A DNA stretch of 64,000 nucleotides from Octopus vulgaris (taxonomy: Eukaryota). Made by a program: the position numbers and the translations under genes. Shown here piece after piece: positions 15,031-58,112 of this stretch. The stretch is taken from positions 45,198,001-45,262,000 of the forward strand of contig OX597826.1 of NCBI GenBank assembly GCA_951406725.2, in the 5' to 3' direction. The notes beneath the pieces are model-generated. The model did no database searches, was not told the origin of the DNA, and saw only the letters and a list, made by a program, of their open reading frames with translations. The first letter of the stretch is position 1, and every line of letters begins with the position of its first letter.

Positions 15031-15034
<4 letters not shown>

Positions 15035-15248
15035 GTAAATGTAATATGTGACAATTATTCGGCAGCCAAGATAAAACTCCGAGTTTCGGATGCCGAGGTG
15101 GAAATCCACGCCGCCATCTCTTCCGAAACTCGGAGTTTTAAAATGGCTACCGAATAATTGTCACATATTACATTTACAGATAAATTTCCTCTATTTACAT
15201 AATATCGAGGTATCTTTCTTTCTTTTGTTATCATACCGTTTTTATCAA
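15031..15248. mobile_element. Fold-back (inverted pLTR-like) insertion in (TA)n, with partial hammerhead
   Basis: Arms 15031-15090 and 15122-15181 are reverse complements; the right arm extends about 65 nt further. Minus strand reads (c)ggaaga-gatg...catc-cGAA-ACTCGGAGT-T. Related fragments at 14686-14710 and 54653-54746. Confidence 0.75.
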
Positions 15249-18744: not shown

Positions 18745-19210
18745 CATAAAATGGATGAATGAATTATCCTTTGTTTACAGTTAACACGGAAAGTTCAGTA
18801 AACGGTTACCAGGGTAGCAAAATTAACGCAAGTAACAAAGATGTAGCGATCTATTCAAAGGTAGAAACTCCGGGTTAATGTCCAGTAATTTGTATAGTAT
18901 AAATAAATATATGGAGTTGAACGCAGGTGTTATTCAAATTCTTTTACTTTCGACATATGTTTCGAAGACAACATCGGTTTTATTCCAAAGGAATAAACGG
19001 TGTTAAATAATGTAATATCATCAGGAAAGAAAGGGAACCCATGTTATGTCTTGTTGGTGAGATGGGTTCTCTTTCTTTCCTGATGAGAAGTTACATGATT
19101 TTACATCGTTTATTCCTTTGGAATAAAACCAATGTTGTCTTCGAAACATATGTCGATAGTAAAGGAGAATTTGAATAACACCTGTGTTCAACTCCACTTA
19201 TTTACTTATA
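18745..19210. mobile_element. Fold-back Penelope-type pLTR insertion with hammerhead motifs on both arms
   Basis: About 140-bp arms, 18901-19042 and 19062-19210, are inverted. The left side extends about 155 nt further. TA-rich flanks. Confidence 0.8.
19075..19159 (+). ncRNA. Minimal type I hammerhead ribozyme (C3-G8, GUC site)
   Basis: ctttc-CTGATGA-gaag...cttc-GAA-ACATATGT-C-gatag. The mirror copy at 18947-19029 on the minus strand has a perfect stem I (gaaag) but a damaged stem II. Confidence 0.8.
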
Positions 19211-20157
19211 TATATGCATATATATATACACACTTGCATTGAACTTGTGGTCGGATCGTATCCGAGTTTTCGAGACGTTTTTAAGCTATTGAGAATACAA
19301 AACATCCTCCACTACGGGACGCCACCCCCTCGCAGAGATAAATCGCCAATTATCGCTGGTACTCATTTTCGGCAGTGTAGATTGAAATAGCGAAAAAGAA
19401 AGTAACTTGGTCAAGGATACAGCATAAATACTCAGTTTGAGCATCGAAACCGGGACTTAACAAACCTGAATACAACACCTTTATCCATTCCAAATAAATA
19501 CACCCCTCAATTAACGTGCTAATAATGATTACTTGTCAATGAAAATTCTGTTCAATATGCTTCATTATCTAGGTGTTTTCTCTGCGAAATTTCTTCACAG
19601 CGCTCTCTTATTTCCATTTTTACATTCATTGGAGTGAATTGAATAAGCCCCTCCTCTCAAAAGGTAAAATGTATTATACCATTGAATAATCTCCCTGTTT
19701 TCATCATAGCAGTATAAATCATATTCCTTTCGATCATATATAGGGTAAAAGCTGCTAAAGAAACGATTGCCGTCTCAGATGCGCTGGAAAGATATCTTTC
19801 AAGTGGATGATCATTTTACTCTAATTTGAATGAAGTTTCTAACTTTGAAACGGTCCATCAGTCGATTAAAGTAATCTGCCGATTAATATCTGCAGTTATT
19901 ATCCCTGAACATTGAAGTTATTCAAAGAAATATACGATTATAAGAAAGAAGGTGGTGCTTTTTAAGTATTGTATAACAGTAGCCATCCTGTAATATTAGC
20001 ATGATCCTGGGAATATATCTGCTGACTGCTGGCTACTATGATGATTGATAGATCTCTTGTTAATGTTCTTGTCATTGAACTCTGGCACACTTCTGTGCAG
20101 ATCAATACTAATTAATCATCACCTCCAGGTTTAGATCGATATAAATGTAATCATTAT

Positions 20158-21327: not shown

Positions 21328-21620
21328 TACGGAGATGTACTTGCATAGCAAGTGACCTGATCTGAGACCGTATGTTGGAACGAAAACAATTGCAGCGTGG
21401 AAGGTGTTTATAAACCATTTAAGAAACGCACAAAAACCGTTAGATTCACTTCAACATTTATATTTAATTTGCCATGCAGCACGGAATTTTGTCAGTGAAC
21501 AGGTCGCGGTCTCAAACCGACGAAAATATTTTGGCAAATTAAATTTAAACGTTGAAATAAATCTAACGGCTTTTGTGTGTTTCTTAAATGGCTTATAAAC
21601 ACCTTCCACGCTGCAATTGT

Positions 21621-21621
<1 letters not shown>
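21328..21621. mobile_element. Fold-back insertion in (TA)n, G3-C8 hammerhead family, copy 1
   Basis: Arms 21385-21474 and 21532-21621 are inverted, with an unpaired left extension of about 57 nt. Same termini as 56661-57096. Confidence 0.85.
21488..21538 (+). ncRNA. Minimal hammerhead ribozyme, G3-C8 core variant
   Basis: tttgtca-GTGAACA-g-gtcg...cgac-GAA-AATATT-T-tggcaaa. Confidence 0.7.
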
Positions 21622-25234: not shown

Positions 25235-25455
25235 AATTTAAAATAAGGGTGAAAAATTGAATATTAATTTGATTAACATCAATTTAAAACCATTGGTCTA
25301 GCATATTAAAATCTGAAGATACAGAAAAATTATATTACATACATATAAGGGGGATGACCACTACGTGAACATCCATTATGCTAGAAGTAGATCCGCTACT
25401 TCTAGCATAATGGATCTCCACGTAGTGGTCGTCCCTCTTATATGTATGTTATATA
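25235..25455. repeat. Fold-back insertion between microsatellites (about 60-bp arms, 5-nt loop)
   Basis: 25331-25390 and 25396-25455 are inverted, with an unpaired left extension from about 25235. No complete hammerhead core found. Confidence 0.75.
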
Positions 25456-28862: not shown

Positions 28863-29475
28863 TATTTCTTTACTACCCACAAGGGGCTAAACACAGAGGG
28901 GACAAACAAGGACAGACAAACGGATTAAGTCGATTACATCGACCCCAGTGCGTAACTGGTACTTACTTTATCGGGCGAAATGCTAAGCTGTATTTCGTCT
29001 GCCGTTACGTTGTGAGTTCAAATTCCGCCGAGGTCGACTTTGCCTTTCATCCTTTCGGGGTCGATAAATTAAGCACCAGTTACGCACTGGGGTCGATGTA
29101 ATCGACTTAATACCTATGTCTGTCCTTGTTCGTCCCCTCTATGTGTCTATGTGTAGCCCCTTGTGGGTAATAAACAAAATAGGTACTTAATTTATCGACC
29201 CCCAAAAGAATGAAAGGCAAAGTCGACCTCGGCGGAATTTGAATCCAGAACGTAATGGCAGACGAAATATGGCTACGCATTTCGCCCGGCGTGCTAACGT
29301 TTCTACCAGCTCGCCGCTTGGCGAGAATGTAAAGTCCGACAAAATGCGGCTGGGCATTTCGCCCGGCGTGCTAACGTTTCTACCAGCTCGCCGCTTGTCG
29401 AGAATGTAAAGACGGACAAAATGCGGCTGGGCATTTTGTCCGGCGTACTAATGTTTCTGACAATTCACTGCCTTA
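28863..29475. mobile_element. Nested SINE family B cluster: + copy 28974-29181 inside a - copy, plus a 77-bp tandem duplication of the head
   Basis: 16-bp TSD ggtacttactttatcg (28958-28973) / ggtacttaatttatcg (29182-29197). Repeat units at 29278 and 29355. Confidence 0.85.
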
Positions 29476-32714: not shown

Positions 32715-33148
32715 TATTATTTTAAGGCAATAATGTTTTTCTTTTGTAAATTAGCGTCCATTTCCTTCGTTATGTATATACACAAAGAAATTTGATAAAA
32801 ATTTAAATTATAATTCGTTTTTGGATTTGGTTTGCTAGATTCTTTATATGAGTTCGTGTGTTGAAGCATATTCTGGTGTGTGTGGGGAGAGTAATTTTCT
32901 TTTTGTGCCTTATAATGTAACACACTCACCGGTAAAATTTCTGCTTTTTTTTCTTATTTTTATTTTCCTAAAATTTTCGTTGCGTCTTACAACCTTTTCA
33001 ATAGTCTTGACGCAATAGACTATTGAAAAGGTTGCAGGACGCAACGAAAATTTTTGGGAAAATAAAAATAAGAAAAAAAAGTGGAAATTTTACCGGTGAG
33101 TGTGTTACATTATAAGACACAAAAAGAAAATGACTCTCCCCAGACACA
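32715..33148. mobile_element. Fold-back insertion, U3-A8 hammerhead-like family
   Basis: About 130-bp arms, 32877-33006 and 33018-33148, are inverted around an 11-nt loop. The left extension matches the fragment at 8828-8930. Confidence 0.8.
32968..33004 (-). ncRNA. Minimal hammerhead-like motif, U3-A8 variant (mirror copy 33020-33056 on +)
   Basis: cta-TTGAAAA-g-gttg(t/c)...gcaac-GAA-AATT-T-tag. Stem I is only 3 bp. Confidence 0.55.
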
Positions 33149-33659
33149 ACATTAAATTATAATGATGTATGCCATATTTCCTGATATCACCTACGGTGGC
33201 AGAATATACTTTTAAAGTTACCAGTCATATGACAGGCAACTCTCTAGTTCATTTATAAATTTTCTAAACCGTCAGCTATTTTTACAGATGATATTGCAAA
33301 CTATATTACAAACAGGCAGAGCGATTTAGAGGAAAATAAAAGAAAGCACAGAAGTAAGAGTACAATTCCAGATGTAGCCGAAATTGTTATGATTTCTAAT
33401 CAACAACTGACGAAGGGATAACTTTATGCTTTGTTTCAGTTTTACTTGTAAAAATCCTTGCTCGTCTATACTATTTTCGTCACACACATATGTGTGTGTT
33501 TTATGTGTATTTGAGAATATGTATATATGCATGTGTGTGCGTGCGATTATGCTTCATTGCATACATGTTTATGTTCAAGATTGATATTTTTGATTTTATA
33601 TATATCGTAATTCCTTCTGAGGATTTCACACCTGGTTTCGAACAGCTGGTTGCCTAGAT

Positions 33660-39033: not shown

Positions 39034-39037
<4 letters not shown>

Positions 39038-39391
39038 AAATAAGCAAAAGAATGACTCCGGTAATTTGGTGCATTGTTTCGCACTACATCATTTTATTAA
39101 ATGTTGTAAGTATTACAACAGATTTAAGATGTTTCCAATTGATTTTAAAACTTTTGTATTAATGGAAAACCTCTATGATTGGCTGATGAGCACTCAGCAT
39201 CTTAAATCTGTTGTAATACTTACAACATTTAATAAAATGATGTAGTGCGAAACAATTGTACCAAATTACCGGAGTCATTCTTGTTGCTTATTTTGATTAT
39301 AATCACCCCACAAATTTTTATGGATAACACCATACAAAATTTGGTGCATCTAAATTAAGTACCATATTTATTCGAATCTAAATTTTTGCTG

Positions 39392-39394
<3 letters not shown>
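39034..39394. mobile_element. Fold-back pLTR-like insertion in the internal (TA)n of a SINE
   Basis: Arms 39034-39131 and 39198-39297 are inverted, with an unpaired right extension of about 95 nt. TA tracts on both sides. Confidence 0.85.
39179..39264 (+). ncRNA. Intact minimal type I hammerhead ribozyme (C3-G8, GUA site)
   Basis: ttgg-CTGATGA-gcact...agtgc-GAA-ACAATTGT-A-ccaa. All core bases are canonical and stem III is palindromic. Confidence 0.85.
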
Positions 39395-39449
<55 letters not shown>

Positions 39450-39770: not shown

Positions 39771-39941
39771 ATATATATAAAATCAGCCGAAATTGCGAGG
39801 ATGATCCTGTTCTTGACTGAGAATAGAAAGCTTCGAATGACCCGTCCTTGTTTTTTTGTATCGTCTATCTGGATGTCTTGTTGTCCCTTTCTGTATCACC
39901 TAGTTGTCCGGATGTTTTGCGTTCTTGTCCCATTTTGTATT

Positions 39942-40286
39942 AGTATACTTAAAATTAGATGGCCCGAACACATAGGCAATATGGAGCTATGACTAAGAGC
40001 AAATCAAGTTTTCGATTAGGGAGCAAATATTTAAGAAAAATCGGAAGTGGATTGGTAGCACAATTAGAAAAGACACACCAAATGTAGCAAAAAGTGCTTT
40101 ACAGTGGAATCCAGGTGGATATAGAAAGAGAGGTAGGTCTAATAACTCGTGGCGTAGATCAACACAAAAGGAACTAGAGAAAGGGGGACATTCATGGCAG
40201 AGTATAAATACAGAAGCGAAAAATTACGCGACATGGAATTCAACTATAAGTGGCCTATACTCCGCGTTGGGGGGGTCAAAGGCAGA
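39942..40286 (+). pseudogene. RTE-clade LINE 3'-terminal fragment
   Basis: Manual translation ILKIRWPEHIGNMEL*LRANQ/SIREQIFKKNRKWIGSTIRKDTPNVAKSALQWNPGGYRKRGRSNNSWRRS...ISGLYS, typical of the RTE ORF C-terminus. One stop and one frameshift. Confidence 0.85.
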
Positions 40287-40325
40287 AATATATATATATA
40301 TAGCGGCGTACGTACACTTTGCTCT

Positions 40326-40377
<52 letters not shown>

Positions 40378-42249
40378 CAACCGTTCATGAAAGATTGTTT
40401 CGGTGTTCATACCAAATGAAACAACGACGCAGAAACATATGAGTCCTACGATCCGATGTCATTCGTAGCCCAATGATGTATTTTTACACATACTGACTAC
40501 GAAGATAATTTTCTTCCGAGACTATTTCTTCGGCAACAAGTATTCCCAAGTTCGAGTGTTCACGAACGTATTAAATATGATTGTACACACATATATTTTA
40601 CTCTAGTAATTTCAACTGACTGGACTATACCATTAAAATTCACCACGGTGGTTTAGTCTAATATCAGTAGGAAGTCTACATTTTACTGAAATACAATCTT
40701 CCTTAGGACAGAGAATAAGAATAGATTAGAAAGTTTTCAGTTTAGGCTTGCGGCGTAAACTTGTCGAAAATCTAGAGTAGCAAAGAAACTTCGTTTAGTT
40801 GGAAGAGACTAAGGCAGGAGGTTCCTGAATTAATTATATCCTACGGTTAAGTGACAACTAACCGGAATAGTAATTAATAATAAATCACAAGGTGGTCCGG
40901 TAGTAGTGATGTTGGTTGTGGTGGTCATAATGATGGTAATGTGCTGCAAAAAAAAAAGAAACATATGAGAATCAGTTAATTACGTGAGTCGATGGGAAAA
41001 AATATAATTGAACGGAACTAACAGACAAATTTGAAGAGACAGTTTTTACAAGACTCTCATCAGAAATGGAAGTGATGAAGAATATTATTATAATGATTTT
41101 CCTACATTAAACGAGAATTCTTCATGTCGAATGTTCAGCAATGAATGCTCATATAAAGGAAATATGAGTTATTTGGTCACAGCTGTTTCGGCGCCGCTTA
41201 TATGGCGTCGTTGATTCTACGCTAACTTATTTGGCATCACACATTTTAATGCTTTTCTCGTTGTCTCCTCTCTCTCTCTCTGTCTCCCTTTCAGTCTATC
41301 TGTCGATCTCTCTCTCTCTCTCTCCCTTTCTCTTTTTGTGTGTTAGCATAATTCTTTTTGCGTGTATGCCAAGAGGGAAAGTGTTTATGTCAATCGTGTT
41401 CAAGTAATAGGCTGTTCAATTCATAAATTGCAATATCTCTCTCTCCCTCCTTTTCTGTCTCCTCTTTATCTTCTTCTCTCTCTATTTCCCTCTCTTGCTA
41501 TCTGTATGGGTTATATTTCGCGTTCGTGGATGCGTGCATATGTCTGTGTATGGTTTCCGCCAACTCCAAGAATTACTGTCTCCAAAAATGCTGAATATGC
41601 CGTCAGCTCTTCTAAACCATCTGTGTCCAAATGGCTGGACTAAATCATTTTATTCCATTTATAATGTTGCCCCAAAGTTAAGGAGGTTGGCTCAGTATTT
41701 CAAATAGTAACCGGGACCTTGCACTAATTTAAAAATCTTGTGATCTCCCTTCTGCCATACAGTGGCACCATATGGAATTTCCTTTCTGCAAGTTCACTAT
41801 TGAAAAACAAAACCGTTAACTGTCAGTGTCATGATGTAATCACTCTCCTGCCTAGAAGTAACCACCAAATCTCCCTCAAATTGAATCTACCAGTTATAAA
41901 TTATAAGTAGAAATCAATTTGGATAATGTTGTACTGGGTTCCCAGTAAGTAGGAAGAAGATGAGATGGTCACGGCTGGAACATAAAAAACGAGAACGGTC
42001 GCATCTGTTAAAGAGCATTCGTTTGTTAGTTATCCTCTGTCACGTGGTGGCTCTACCAGCTAGATAAAACTGCCAAATCTCCCTTAAATCAAACGCTAAC
42101 AAAACAAAAAACAAAACAACAAACATGGCTGACGCTGGATAATGTGGTGTTGGGTTTTCACATCAGACATCTTTTATTTTTAAGTCGTCTCGATCAGGGT
42201 TGACCAAGGATTTGTTAAACTATAATAACAGCAACAGTGAAGTTGTGTT

Positions 42250-46517: not shown

Positions 46518-47717
46518 TCAACGAGGAGTTTGCATATTAAGTTGTGTTTGGAATTTTTCAATAAAGAGATTCTCCTTGTTAATTCTCTCCTGTGTGGTGA
46601 TCCCGTCTTTACATTGGTAGAAGGGGAATATATAGAATTTGGGGTTTAAGTCTTTAGCACATGAGTCTAAGTGGTCACTCAGTGGAATTTGTCGGTATTC
46701 CGGGAGATTTATTTGTTCTTTATGCACCGTTACTCGTTTACGTAACGGGAGACTCGTTTGTCCCACATAATTATGTTGGCAACCAGCGCATGTGAGAACG
46801 TAGATAAGGTTCTCGGAGGAACAGGAGAAGTTAGTCTTGATTTTAAACTTCGTACCTTGTTTGAAGGTAAATTCAGAGCCTTCAAGTAGAAAGGGGCAGG
46901 TACCACAGTTTGAGCGTGCACATTTTTTTACTGTTGGGGGTGGATGTGGTGTGTGAAGTTTGGCATTTGTCAAGAGTTTTTTTAAAGATTTGTGTTGCCT
47001 TTTGCATTTGAGGATTTTGTGTGTATTTATAATGTTTTTCATTTTTGGGTCTGTTGACAGTAGACTGAGGTTTTGTATGATTGTGGTGTATGCTTCGATA
47101 TTTTTGGGGTTGTGGGTGGAAATGTATGGAAGTATTTTGAGGTTGTGTGTGGTGTTAGGTTGGGTGGTTATCAGTGTAGTGTTGTCTAGTTCTTTGGCGC
47201 GTTTTATTCCATACTCTATAAGGGTGGAGGGATATTGACGTTGTAATAGTGTTTTTTTGAGGTCTTGAAGGCGTATTTCTCGTGTTTTTGGATCCGAGAC
47301 AATGGTGCATACCCTTTTAGCTAAATTGATGGGGATATTTGTCTTGGTGTGTTTTGGGTGGCATGAACTAAAGAGGAGGTATTGTTGTGAGTCTGTAGGT
47401 TTGTGGTAGATGTCTGTTATGATTTGGTTCTTAGGTGTTTTTATAATTAGGAGATCAAGGAATGGGAGGTGATGTTTGCTAAATTCCATAGTGAATTGGA
47501 TGTTGGGATGTATGTTGTTTAGTATGGTTTTGAATTCCAGGAGTTTTTCATAAGGTTCTTTCCATATGATGAAACAATCATCTAAATACCTTTTCCAGTT
47601 TTCCATTAGGTAGGTGTGGAAAACATGTCCAAATTTCTGGCTTGATATTTCATAGAGTGACAGTTCGAAGTAACCCATTATGAGGTTCGCAAGGACTGGT
47701 GCAGCCTTGGTACCCAT
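46518..47717 (-). CDS. Penelope-like element (Neptune-type) polyprotein, 5'-truncated: RT C-terminal half + Cys-rich linker + GIY-YIG endonuclease
   Basis: 399-aa ORF with (GIA)MGTKAAPVLANL, WKRYLDDCFIIW, IQFTME..LPFLDL, TDIYHKPTDSQQYL..SCHP, linker CARSNCGTC and endonuclease FSCSSENLIYVLTCAGCQHNYVGQT..LRKRVTVH..E. The ATG is an internal Met. Homology continues upstream to about 47808 across a frameshift near 47760. Confidence 0.95.
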   Translation of the reverse strand: MGTKAAPVLANLIMGYFELSLYEISSQKFGHVFHTYLMENWKRYLDDCFIIWKEPYEKLLEFKTILNNIHPNIQFTMEFSKHHLPFLDLLIIKTPKNQIITDIYHKPTDSQQYLLFSSCHPKHTKTNIPINLAKRVCTIVSDPKTREIRLQDLKKTLLQRQYPSTLIEYGIKRAKELDNTTLITTQPNTTHNLKILPYISTHNPKNIEAYTTIIQNLSLLSTDPKMKNIINTHKILKCKRQHKSLKKLLTNAKLHTPHPPPTVKKCARSNCGTCPFLLEGSEFTFKQGTKFKIKTNFSCSSENLIYVLTCAGCQHNYVGQTSLPLRKRVTVHKEQINLPEYRQIPLSDHLDSCAKDLNPKFYIFPFYQCKDGITTQERINKENLFIEKFQTQLNMQTPR

Positions 47718-48281
47718 CGCAATGCCACATTTTTGACGGTAGTGTGTGTCGTCGAAGAGAAAAATTGTTTGTCAGAATGAACTTAAGAGATTCTGTAATA
47801 AAAGACTTATATATATATATATGTATATATGTATATATATATGTATATATATATATGTGTGTGTGTGTGTATAATATATGCGCGTGTGTGTGTTTTTGTG
47901 CATATATATATATATATATATATACATACATATATATATGTGTGTGTGTGTATAAATGCTAGTATGTTGTATGTATATATGTATGCATGTATGTATGTAT
48001 GTATGAATGCTTGTATGTTGTATGTATGTATATATGTATGCACGTATGTATGTATATATGCATATGTATATGTATGAATGGGTGCGCACGTATGCATGTA
48101 TACCTTCAATTGTGAGCATTCTAGCAACTGTGTAGTCATCCTCGAACCCGACGAAGATCCATTTAATTTTTTATCTTCATATGCTTATGTGTATGACTGC
48201 ATAATACGTGTGTATGCGTCTATACTTATACGAACATGTATGTATATTTAAGCGTGCATATTAATTTTTTCGAGTTCAAGC

Positions 48282-54038: not shown

Positions 54039-54272
54039 ATATGTATGTGTGTGTATATGTTTGTGTCTGTGTTTGTCTCCCCAACATCGCTTGACAACCG
54101 ATGCTGGTGAGTTTACGTCCCCGTAACTTAGCGGTTCAGCAAAAGTGACAGATAGAATATGTACTAGGCTTACAAAGAATAAGTCCTGGGGTCGATTTGC
54201 CCGTCTAAAGACGGTGCTCCAGCATGGCTACGGTCAAATGACTGAAACAAGTGAAAGAGTAAAGAGTAAAGA
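53776..54272 (+). mobile_element. SINE family A (5'-truncated) with insertion 53869-53977 in its TA tract
   Basis: aagtgtcttctactatag...gaaactgaaagaa, then a complete tail to gagtaaagag. Confidence 0.85.
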
Positions 54273-54380
54273 GGGAGAAGGAAAAGTATAGTCCGAAAAA
54301 ACGCACTTGTCACATGTTGGAAAATCAAAAGAAATGTACATGTAGATTATATGTTTTATAATCTTTTAATCTTTTACTTT

Positions 54381-54584
54381 ATTCTTTTACTTGTTTCAGT
54401 CACTTGACTGCAGCCATGGAGGAGCAGCGCCTTTAATCCAATAAATCGAACCCTGGACTTATTCGTTGTAAGCAAAGTACTTTTTCTATCGGTCATTTTT
54501 GCCGAAACACTAAGTTACGGGGACGTAAACAAAACTGCATCAGTTGTCGAGCGATGGTGGGGGAACAAACACAGACACACACAA

Positions 54585-54656
<72 letters not shown>

Positions 54657-56660: not shown

Positions 56661-57094
56661 TTACGGAGATATACTCGCATAGCAAGTGATTTGATCTGAG
56701 ATCGTGTGCTGGAACGAAAACAACTGCAGCGTGGAAGGTGTTTGTAAGCCATTTAAGAAACACACAAAAGCCGTTCGATTCACTTCAACATTTAAGTTTA
56801 ATTTGTCAAAATATTTTCGTCGCTAAAATCCGCGACCTGTTCACTGACAAAAGTCCGTGCTGCAGCACCTGTTTTACGTACCCGTAACTTAGCGGTTTGG
56901 CAAAAGAACTGATAGAAATAAGTACTAGGCATACAAAGAATAAGTTGTGCTGCAGCACGGATTTTTGTCAGTGAACAGGTCGCGGATTTTAGCGACGAAA
57001 ATATTTTGACAAATTAAACTTAAATGTTGAAGTGAATCGAACGGCTTTTGTGTGTTTCTTAAATGGCTTACAAACACCTTCCACGCTGCAATTG

Positions 57095-57096
<2 letters not shown>
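56661..57096. mobile_element. Fold-back insertion in (TA)n, G3-C8 hammerhead family, copy 2, with SINE-derived spacer
   Basis: Near-perfect 150-bp arms at 56719-56868 and 56947-57096, with an unpaired left extension of about 58 nt. The spacer is SINE tail sequence. Confidence 0.9.
56964..57013 (+). ncRNA. Minimal hammerhead ribozyme, G3-C8 variant (mirror copy 56802-56851 on minus)
   Basis: tttgtca-GTGAACA-g-gtcgc(ggatttta)gcgac-GAA-AATATT-T-tgacaaa: 7-bp stem I, 5-bp stem II, palindromic stem III. Confidence 0.78.
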
Positions 57097-57542: not shown

Positions 57543-58112
57543 CTTTTGTTTCAGTCATTTGAGTGCGGCCATGCTGGAGTACCGTCTTTAGTCGGACAAA
57601 TCGAGCCCACCACTTATTCTTTGTATGTCTAGTACTTATTTCTATCAGTTCTTGTGCCAAACCGCTAAGTTACGGGTACGTAAACACACCAACATTCAGG
57701 TGATGGTGGGGGGACAAACACACATACACATATATACACATATATAAAACAAAAGACAGAAACACAGAGACAACAAGCATGTGTATTAGTTTGACATTCG
57801 GGAAAAATGTGTTTGACGTTTCGAGCTTACGCTCTTTGACAGGAATGAGAGGGGGGGAAATGGAATGAGAGTGAGAGGAAAAAAAGAGAGAGTGAGACAG
57901 AAAACAAATGTGTCTTGATTAACGGTTTCACTCGTACGGCAGGTTTTCACTCGGTTTCCTCTCGGTTTCCATTTACGAAATTCACTAACAAAGTATTAGT
58001 CGGCCCAGAGTTAGAGTTGAAGACACTTGTCTCAGGAGCTGGAAAGTGAAATTAAACTCGAAACCAGGCGGGTGAAAATCGATTTTCTTAATCACAGAGC
58101 CATGCCTGCACC
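57543..58112 (-). mobile_element. SINE family A tail (57543-57722) and degenerate head (about 57960-58112)
   Basis: The tail is clearly homologous; the head is highly diverged. Confidence 0.65.
57745..57935 (-). mobile_element. pLTR-like fragment with CTGTC(G/A)A hammerhead-like motif (57811-57846); relative at 28527-28637
   Basis: Minus strand reads CTGTCAA-a-gagc(gtaa)gctc-GAA-ACGT-C. The 28527-28637 fragment carries gtaggctc-GAA-ACGT-A-aaagac and similar flanking sequence. Confidence 0.5.

What the first reader, a model, noticed from the sequence alone, without database searches (positions are those of the whole stretch)
56661..57096. G3-C8 hammerhead family: two independent fold-back insertions with identical ends
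21328-21621 and 56661-57096 both begin at (t)acggagat, both end at ctgcaattgtt followed by (TA)n, and both have one arm about 57 nt longer. Only the turn-around point differs. The motif GUGAACA swaps C3-G8 to G3-C8, has an extra G before stem II, an AAUAUU palindromic stem III and a UUU cleavage triplet, all atypical. Fixed ends in independent insertions imply mechanistically defined termini (pLTR plus tail) rather than random palindromes.
Basis: partly seen in the sequence, partly recalled or inferred. Interest (0 to 1): 0.75.

Follow-up and report, generated by a model that had tools for sequence, protein, structure and literature searches.

The report
Penelope retrotransposon stubs with swapped-core hammerhead
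These two fold-back repeats are separate insertions of the front end of a Penelope-type jumping gene in what is likely an octopus genome; they carry a predicted self-cutting RNA motif with two paired core letters swapped, and their junctions likely record how the element is copied into DNA, though cutting itself is untested.

Summary
Mostly confirmed. A (56661-57096) and B (21328-21621) are independent head-to-head insertions into (TA)n: same outer ends, unrelated flanks, about 90% alike, and a 57-nt tail on one arm. The 30-codon frame that runs through arm and tail is the N-terminus of octopus gene models. These overlap a protein with Penelope-like (PLE) RT motifs 1, 2 and A, so the repeats are pLTR-plus-tail stubs of a PLE, not a MITE. 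The link is by protein, not contiguous DNA, and the endonuclease was not seen. The minimal hammerhead is real as a motif, but only G3-C8 is atypical; the extra nucleotide, palindromic stem III and U17 are ordinary for PLE hammerheads. I found natural G3-C8 in no paper searched (Lünse 2017 was unavailable); this scan noted it before on other DNA, including this genome. A holds a 78-nt filler that is 74/77 identical to the SINE 511 nt downstream. One inner end recurs 20 nt upstream of the core. B's tailed arm stops within 1 nt of the predicted cut site (one case). Likely mechanism: twin-primed reverse transcription of a short 5' RNA, then end joining. Cleavage is untested.

The parts
56661..57096 (.). 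Element A: head-to-head fold-back insertion of PLE 5' ends in (TA)n
56662..56718 (-). A: 57-nt tail (ORF codons 12-30), on the left arm only
56719..56868 (-). A: left arm body (pLTR in sense on the minus strand), 148 of 150 identical to the right arm
56802..56851 (-). A: G3-C8 minimal hammerhead motif on the left arm (core G3 at 56844)
56663..56752 (-). A: first 30 codons of the parent PLE ORF (26 of 30 identical to P0058 1-30; tblastn 1-31 to 56752-56660)
56857..56868 (.). 12-nt palindrome centred on TGCA at the inner end of the left arm; repeated at 56947-56958
56869..56946 (+). A: 78-nt filler; 56873-56949 is 74 of 77 identical, without gaps, to the reverse complement of the neighbouring SINE
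57608..57684 (-). Likely template of the filler: part of a SINE copy 511 nt past A's right end
56947..57096 (+). A: right arm (pLTR without tail; ATG at 57063, 11 codons)
56964..57013 (+). A: G3-C8 minimal type I hammerhead motif; predicted cut 57006|57007, 56 nt before the ATG
21328..21621 (.). Element B: second, older fold-back insertion in (TA)n
21328..21474 (-). B: tailed arm (tail 21328-21384; ORF codons 1-30 from 21418); its inner end maps to 57007, the first base after the predicted cut (1-nt ambiguity)
21475..21621 (+). B: tail-less arm, starting at the recurrent inner end 20 nt upstream of the core; G3-C8 motif with core at 21495 (one stem II pair broken, one U-G in stem I)

Best explanation
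A and B are separate head-to-head insertions of the 5' end (pLTR plus tail, with a G3-C8 hammerhead motif and the first ORF codons) of a high-copy Penelope-like retrotransposon, likely made by reverse transcription primed from both nicked strands of a (TA)n target and then joined by repair. Step 1 (inferred): the parent's endonuclease nicks both strands in (TA)n; the endonuclease was not seen. Step 2 (inferred from the anole PLE, PMC11167929): the RT starts at two internal sites in the RNA, here about 34 and 91-92 nt into the ORF. That gives the two fixed outer ends, and the 57 nt between them is the tail. Step 3 (inferred): each cDNA runs off the 5' end of a short template. That end lies either at the recurrent point 20 nt upstream of the core (probably the transcript's or pLTR's 5' end) or, for B's tailed arm, at the hammerhead cut. 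Because the RT start sites lie only 90-200 nt from these ends, the products are tiny ORF-less stubs. Step 4: the two cDNAs are joined head to head. In A the joint has a TGCA-centred palindrome on both sides and a filler copied from DNA 511 nt away (shown by sequence). This would fit snap-back synthesis on a resected flank (inferred; end-joining mechanism recalled, not from a call). The hammerhead is predicted to cleave weakly, as a dimer through AAUAUU or with protein help (untested).
For: Parent link: the 30-aa frame through arm and tail found 3 proteins among 1.84 billion; the best, P0055 (E 2e-10), is an Octopus bimaculoides model, and the other two are repetitive chance-like hits. P0058 (O. 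sinensis) begins with the same 30 residues (26/30 to A, 25/30 to B) and continues; P0060 also reads across the tail end. P0058 74-223 matches P0061 47-197 (O. vulgaris) at 79%. P0061 176-533 scores 65.3 bits on an HMM of the 53 PLE proteins, against at most 6.9 in 500 shuffles, with DKSG, YGLRKDHK, RP and SMDVVSLYPSI (RT motif A). The Atlas puts P0059 with PF28514 clusters at 0.97, a family carried by 51 of those 53 proteins. Layout: 11 codons in the pLTR and 30 with the tail, against 12 and 22 in Pen2a_Av; head-to-head repeats with palindromic junctions are described there. The tail equals the interval between two RT start sites, and both target strands are extended in vitro. Built in place: the filler has 3 mismatches and 0 gaps to the nearest SINE, against 8-13 mismatches and 1-3 gaps to the 8 other copies compared (three weaker BLAST hits were left out). 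Recurrent inner end: in public contigs depth falls from 0.89M to 0.18M (X1) at 56861-56870; mixed loose ends start at 56864 in 3 of 4 runs (105, 80 and 4 contigs); opposite-strand joints pair 56864 with 56795 and 56824 (15 of 40 joints shown).
Against: No contiguous DNA from pLTR to RT was seen; the chain runs through automatic gene models, and P0058 is fused to a methyltransferase from about residue 225. Pfam finds no RT in P0059 or P0061. The models end before RT motif C and any GIY-YIG domain. The open frame alone is weak (310 of 2000 shuffles reach 30 codons). The tail is 57 nt, longer than the 30-40 nt quoted for PLEs. The cut-site end rests on one arm (about 2% by chance, post hoc). None of the 15 joints shown lies at 56807-56809, although two rows of its table 5c (X1, X5; 12 of 20 rows shown) have one side at 56807. 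In the anole PLE, ribozyme mutants insert normally and no RNA reads start or end at the cut. None of the 32 contig pieces listed spans A's filler junction, so it is not independently confirmed. The double-hammerhead dimer (-27.2 kcal/mol) is about equal to two open monomers (-26.6) and less stable than the best cofold (-31.3). Stem variants seen among copies are wobble-compatible, but three of four are CpG-type C-to-T changes, so they do not show selection.
Confidence: 0.72

Rival explanations
1. Same PLE origin, but the fold-back arises by self-priming or snap-back of a single cDNA (or on an antisense template), as proposed by Arkhipova et al. 2013, not by priming from both target strands.
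For: Palindromes at the inverted junction are the published argument for self-priming, and A has such a palindrome. A's arms share subfamily alleles, as expected if one arm was copied from the other.
Against: In B the tail-less arm extends 56 nt further inward than the tailed arm, so it cannot be a simple copy of it. The fixed tail-less outer end matches a second RT start site, and both strands are extended in vitro.
Confidence: 0.15
2. The stubs are PLE-derived but the G3-C8 hammerhead is catalytically dead or irrelevant; B's inner end meets the cut site by chance or because RT stalls at the stem. This concerns only the ribozyme step and is compatible with the rest of the main reading.
For: C3G/G8C only partly rescues cleavage, and ribozyme activity is not needed for insertion in vitro. 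Minimal PLE hammerheads are slow even as dimers. In a read-through transcript of A the motif is buried in a 150-bp duplex. Rfam does not recognise the motif.
Against: A double swap that keeps the 3-8 pair, with all other core positions intact, is hard to get without selection (inference). No core variant appears among the 40 of 62 variant rows shown. B's arm ends within 1 nt of the cut.
Confidence: 0.35
3. A pre-formed palindromic unit (MITE-like) moved by a DNA transposase into TA sites.
For: Short, non-coding, long inverted arms, TA context, very high copy number.
Against: The ends are asymmetric (57-nt tail). The joints differ between A and B. A's filler comes from the local flank. The sequence is the N-terminus of an RT-coding ORF.
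Confidence: 0.03
4. A's fold-back and filler are an assembly chimera at an inverted repeat.
For: No listed public contig spans the filler junction; PLE inverted repeats are known to trouble assemblers.
Against: The filler differs from its neighbour at 3 of 77 sites, and at two of them it has the allele of most other SINE copies, which an assembler's copy would not. Fold-back joints occur in contigs of independent runs.
Confidence: 0.04

Closest known systems
[quoted passage not shown]
   Same: [quoted passage not shown] A Crassostrea example reads as a UUU triplet (my reading of a PDF whose columns were lost).
   Different: The core pair is G3-C8; the parts read report C3-G8 and U3-A8 only. 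Their consensus extra nucleotide is H, here G (G occurs in Hydra-1_oBim).
PAc Poseidon element of the anole (Frangieh et al. 2024, PMC11167929; read parts 1-2 of 4 and passages)
   Same: Hammerhead at the ORF start, two internal RT start sites bounding the tail, AT-rich targets, both strands extended; the engineered C3G/G8C double mutant is partly active.
   Different: Here the swap is natural. The cut lies 56 nt before the ATG (26 nt after it in PAc), the tail is 57 nt, and one genomic arm ends at the cut, whereas no RNA ends were found there in the anole.
Penelope elements of Adineta vaga, e.g. Pen2a_Av (Arkhipova et al. 2013, PMC3846280; passages and Discussion)
   Same: pLTR holds the first codons and the tail extends them; inverted pLTRs; palindromes at the head-to-head junction; captured host DNA.
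   Different: Here the inserts are pLTR-only stubs at very high copy number, and a filler is traced to the adjacent flank.
Hydra clade, including Hydra-1_Obim (Craig et al. 2021, PMC8557442; passages, supplement part 2 and term searches)
   Same: (TA)n targets, hammerhead present, GxKF not conserved, an RW-basic motif and KDHK.
   Different: DKS instead of DKT, and YGLRKDHK instead of ITLKDHK. The N-terminal extension is about 210 residues. All 34 hammerhead rows in File S2 have C3-G8 (found with a CUGANGA-type descriptor). Hydra-1_Obim has another protein start and another hammerhead; 0 hits for this family's short motifs in the supplement.
Non-LTR retrozymes (PMC7229834, passages; bioRxiv 10.64898/2026.07.22.740005, part 1 of 5)
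   Same: Small non-coding PLE-related repeats with type I hammerheads.
   Different: Retrozymes are head-to-tail tandems; these copies are head-to-head and contain the ORF start.

Membership tests
Penelope-like elements (EN+) | Linked ORF with PLE-type reverse transcriptase | tested here: met
   Protein chain element frame - P0058 - P0061; 65.3 bits vs at most 6.9 in 500 shuffles, motifs 1, 2 and A. By overlap of gene models, not contiguous DNA; Pfam RVT_1 not hit.
Penelope-like elements (EN+) | GIY-YIG endonuclease in the same ORF | tested here: inconclusive
   The gene models end before RT motif C; no endonuclease seen.
Penelope-like elements (EN+) | pLTR includes the first ORF codons, and the tail extends them | tested here: met
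   11 codons in the arm, 30 with the tail; compare.
Penelope-like elements (EN+) | Optional tail on one end (30-40 nt in the literature) | tested here: met
   Tail on one arm in 2 of 2 elements, but 57 nt long.
Penelope-like elements (EN+) | Head-to-head inverted copies, often with a palindrome at the junction | tested here: met
   2 of 2 elements head-to-head; palindrome in A.
Penelope-like elements (EN+) | Hammerhead motif in the pLTR, in the sense of the ORF | tested here: met
Penelope-like elements (EN+) | AT-rich or (TA)n targets | tested here: met
   All 4 ends abut TA runs; such runs cover 4.8% of the window.
Penelope-like elements (EN+) | Full-length copies in partial tandems with direct pLTRs | not testable with these tools
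   No genome is held; no related locus in prokaryote or viral contigs.
PLE minimal type I hammerhead | Core C3-G8 (or U3-A8) pair | tested here: not met
   G3-C8 in 3 of 3 motif copies: pairing kept, identity swapped.
PLE minimal type I hammerhead | U4 G5 A6 N7, A9, G12 A13 A14, A15.1-U16.1, H17 | tested here: met
PLE minimal type I hammerhead | Extra nucleotide 9/10.1, G10.1-C11.1, palindromic stem III | tested here: met
PLE minimal type I hammerhead | Self-cleavage (as a dimer or protein-assisted) | not testable with these tools
   Indirect only: B's arm ends at the cut; dimer energy marginal.
Hydra clade of PLEs | GxKF not conserved; RWK motif | tested here: inconclusive
   PPKF and LRWR in P0059/P0061.
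Hydra clade of PLEs | DKG changed to DKT; short element without a long N-terminal extension | tested here: not met
   DKSG; N2-like motif about 210 residues from the start.
Hydra clade of PLEs | Endonuclease without CCHH, CxCX5C linker | not testable with these tools
   Endonuclease region not recovered.
MITE (non-autonomous DNA transposon) | Symmetric terminal inverted repeats and a fixed interior moved as a unit | tested here: not met
   57-nt asymmetry, different joints, locally copied filler.
MITE (non-autonomous DNA transposon) | Derivation from a transposase element | tested here: not met
   Links to an RT ORF.
Non-LTR retrozyme | Head-to-tail tandem units, each with a hammerhead | tested here: not met
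   2 of 2 window copies are head-to-head; tandem forms elsewhere in the genome were not examined.

The most novel reading that the evidence does not exclude
This family carries a natural, active G3-C8 hammerhead that cuts the PLE transcript in vivo, 56 nt before the start codon. Its tens of thousands of stubs are a fossil record of the PLE insertion reaction: twin priming from two RT start sites, run-off at either the transcript's 5' end or the ribozyme cut, and repair with locally templated filler. Tabulating the inner ends would then give genomic proof that PLE hammerheads cleave during the transposition cycle, a point the literature read calls unclear, and would explain head-to-head PLE repeats without an antisense template.
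Probability: 0.3. Interest if true: 0.68.

Novelty: new variant of a known kind. Interest (0 to 1): 0.45.

Why it matters
PLE hammerhead function is described as unclear (PMC8557442), and the one in vitro system found it dispensable, with no RNA ends at the cut (PMC11167929). A very abundant family with fixed, countable ends makes the question testable from genome sequence alone. A natural G3-C8 core would also mean that CUGANGA-based searches miss whole high-copy ribozyme families. Short fold-back repeats like these could be mislabelled as MITEs, although they are retroelement ends. The overall architecture is ordinary PLE biology.

Tried and rejected
No own genome is held, so the proposed genome-wide BLASTN could not be run. 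Rfam: the whole-window listing (150 of 275 rows shown) held only microRNA-family matches below their gathering scores, and the element alone gave no hammerhead. DNA pattern scans: 22 viral loci for a 16-mer and 1 metagenome locus for a 23-mer are chance matches of at most 30 nt; 0 in prokaryote genomes. The search for related loci with P0059 found no relative among 287 and 175 pattern hits. The PLE ORF in this window (46518-47771) is not the parent: no DNA match to A or B, its own U3-A8 hammerhead, no tblastn match from P0059 or P0061, and none of its 53 longer homologs starts with the element's peptide. Hydra-1_Obim was rejected as parent. P0055 vs P0053 gave no significant alignment, and the Atlas had no hit above 0.78 for the N-terminal extension, so the clade is left open. 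An intron inside the tail, suggested by P0055, was dropped because P0058 and P0060 read straight through. P0056 and P0057 were dropped as repetitive chance hits. The MAFFT count of shared filler variants was inflated by misalignment and replaced by pairwise counts. The dimer energy for B failed on a length slip. The dip in depth at 56811-56850 is confounded by A's divergent loop II and was not used. Lünse et al. 2017 (PMC5785218) is not held, one Cervera 2014 supplement file was not searchable, and the preprint's supplements are closed; any of them could already list G3-C8. Literature searches for natural G3-C8: plus term searches in PMC3088659 (U3-A8 only), PMC3884650 (engineered variant) and PMC8495972 (engineered rescue). 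For cut-site-ended insertions; for twin priming in PLEs. None found.

Full report
Setting. The window is AT-rich animal DNA dense in microsatellites and SINEs. No genome is held for it. The protein hits below point to an octopus; the species was not determined.

The observation. A (56661-57096) and B (21328-21621) are the only two elements of this family that BLASTN found in the window. Both start (T)TACGGAGAT, end CTGCAATTGTT and abut (TA)n on both sides; such runs cover 4.8% of the window. Each has the same 57-nt outer extension on its left arm. A's arms match at 148 of 150 sites and B's at 83 of 90, so B is older. A and B are 89-90% alike and their flanks share little beyond TA runs: they are independent insertions. 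The statement that only the turn-around differs is incomplete. A has a 78-nt spacer between two copies of a 12-nt palindrome centred on TGCA. B has no spacer; its tail-less arm starts at the same TGCA, and its tailed arm stops at the position equivalent to 57007.

The ribozyme motif. A descriptor allowing any Watson-Crick 3-8 pair found 5 motifs in the window, three of them G3-C8 in this family. Twenty simulated windows gave 1 loose and 0 strong hits. Stems I and II are the predicted fold. Rfam does not recognise the motif. Cervera and de la Pena 2014 (PMC4209133, parts 1-2 and supplement passages) list the extra nucleotide before stem II, G10.1-C11.1 and a palindromic stem III as standard for PLE minimal hammerheads. 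U stands at the cut in 10 of 34 rows of File S2 of PMC8557442, and a Crassostrea example appears to have UUU. So only G3-C8 is unusual. The natural swap reported in the passages I read is U3-A8. C3G/G8C appears only as an engineered, partly active mutant, including in a PLE ribozyme. Searches found no natural G3-C8, but Lünse 2017 was not held. In public contigs none of the 40 variant rows shown (of 62, at 3% or more) falls in the core. Stem variants are wobble-compatible but mostly CpG-type, so they prove nothing. The double-hammerhead dimer is about as stable as two open monomers (-27.2 vs -26.6 kcal/mol) and is not the best cofold (-31.3). Cleavage is untested.

The parent. On the ribozyme strand an ATG 56 nt after the predicted cut opens a frame of 11 codons to the tail-less end and 30 codons to the tail end. 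Alone this is weak (310 of 2000 shuffles). A profile of the two 30-mers found 3 proteins among 1.84 billion; the best was an O. bimaculoides gene model that starts with the peptide. Following it gave P0058 (O. sinensis; residues 1-30 are 26/30 and 25/30 identical to A and B, and the frame continues), P0060, and P0059/P0061 (O. vulgaris). P0058 74-223 matches P0061 47-197 at 79%. P0061 176-533 scores 65.3 bits on an HMM of 53 PLE proteins (500 shuffles: at most 6.9), with the DKx, RT1, RT2 and RT-A motifs. The Atlas independently groups P0059 with PF28514 clusters, the family on 51 of those 53 proteins. Against this: the link runs through automatic gene models, one fused to a methyltransferase; Pfam alone finds no RT; and no endonuclease was reached. 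The clade is open: some Hydra-like traits, but DKS, YGLRKDHK and a long N-terminal extension do not fit, and Hydra-1_Obim is a different element. The Neptune-like ORF at 46518-47771 is not the parent.

Abundance and ends elsewhere. Twenty of 24 listed runs hold part of the stretch, under four coded organism labels and one metagenome label. On the left arm plus spacer, 25,011 contigs were laid from X1 and 21,755 from X5. Summed depth over the arm is 2.5-3.9 million in X1, while long contigs have depth 30-54. The tool warns that this is no copy number; as a rough inference it implies 10^4-10^5 arms, in line with 2 elements in 64 kb. Depth drops fivefold at 56861-56870. Mixed loose ends begin at 56864 in 3 of 4 runs, and fold-back joints pair 56864 with variable partners (56795, 56824). 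So one inner end is recurrent and the other varies. Two rows (X1, X5) have a joint side at 56807, 1-2 nt from the cut, but none of the 15 joints shown in the main table does; enrichment at the cut is not shown.

The filler. Positions 56873-56949 match the reverse complement of the SINE at 57608-57684, 511 nt past A, with 3 mismatches and no gap. The 8 other SINE copies compared differ by 8-13 mismatches and 1-3 gaps. A GTG microhomology lies at the switch to the right arm. At two of the three differences the filler has the common allele, so it is not an assembler's copy. The joint was therefore most likely built at this locus, which argues against movement of a ready-made palindrome. No listed contig spans it.

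Mechanism. Shown by sequence: two fixed outer ends inside the ORF, head-to-head arms, TA targets, a recurrent inner end, a locally copied filler, and one arm ending at the predicted cut. From the literature: the anole PLE protein nicks AT-rich DNA, extends both strands and starts at two internal sites that bound the tail (PMC11167929); head-to-head repeats, junction palindromes and pLTRs holding the first codons are known (PMC3846280; PMC8557442). Inferred: both nicked strands prime cDNA, one from each start site; each runs off a nearby RNA 5' end; the two cDNAs are joined by microhomology, sometimes with snap-back filler. I put PLE origin at about 0.93, this joining model at about 0.7, and an active ribozyme shaping ends in vivo at about 0.3-0.4. 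The main rivals are self-priming of one cDNA (hard to fit to B, whose tail-less arm reaches 56 nt further inward) and an inert ribozyme.

Novelty. The architecture is known. I did not find the family in the supplement of PMC8557442, and a recent O. vulgaris repeat annotation has no occurrence of 'ribozyme' in its main text (PMC13282606, passages); its libraries were not checked. The G3-C8 core is a new variant as far as my searches reach. Earlier notes of this scan report the same swap in this genome and in others; I could not tell whether they concern this family (searches returned nothing), and they are not independent evidence. Verdict: a new variant of a known kind, interest 0.45.

Noticed in passing
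window 46518-47771 (-), with 3' region to about 45680: 5'-truncated PLE of another family: open 417-codon frame with RT C-terminal part, CX4CXXC linker and GIY-YIG (Neptune/Nematis-like), flanked by (TA)n, with a U3-A8 hammerhead-like motif at -45878.
   Followed up: partly
window 39035-39395: Another head-to-head fold-back in (TA)n with a roughly 100-nt one-sided extension and a C3-G8 hammerhead with a long stem II at +39183; probably a third PLE family.
   Followed up: partly
window 32874-33151, 18893-19214, 15033-15179, 25337-25449: Further short fold-back elements of unrelated sequence, some beside TA runs; no hammerhead by the descriptor used. 18893-19214 contains CUGAUGA and could hold a rearranged motif.
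   Followed up: no
window 28865-29290 and 54048-54593: Inverted pairs of SINE-like repeats, with a partial duplication near 28972-29288.
   Followed up: no
window 39900-40310 (+): Frame 39997-40419 reads like the C-terminal end of an RTE-type LINE (recalled resemblance, not tested).
   Followed up: no
P0058 (XP_029654200.2) and P0061 (CAI9741096.1): Public octopus gene models are chimeras of this PLE ORF with other sequence: a methyltransferase part in P0058, an unrelated first 46 residues in P0061.
   Followed up: partly
P0023: A full-length PLE protein is filed under a bacterial MAG (Candidatus Thiodiazotropha) on a 4-kb contig, probably host contamination.
   Followed up: no
window 56864, loose ends: The mixed continuations beyond the recurrent inner end start with TCT in 3 runs, i.e. 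AG-A before the unit on the ribozyme strand; this could mark a splice acceptor or the parent's upstream sequence.
   Followed up: no
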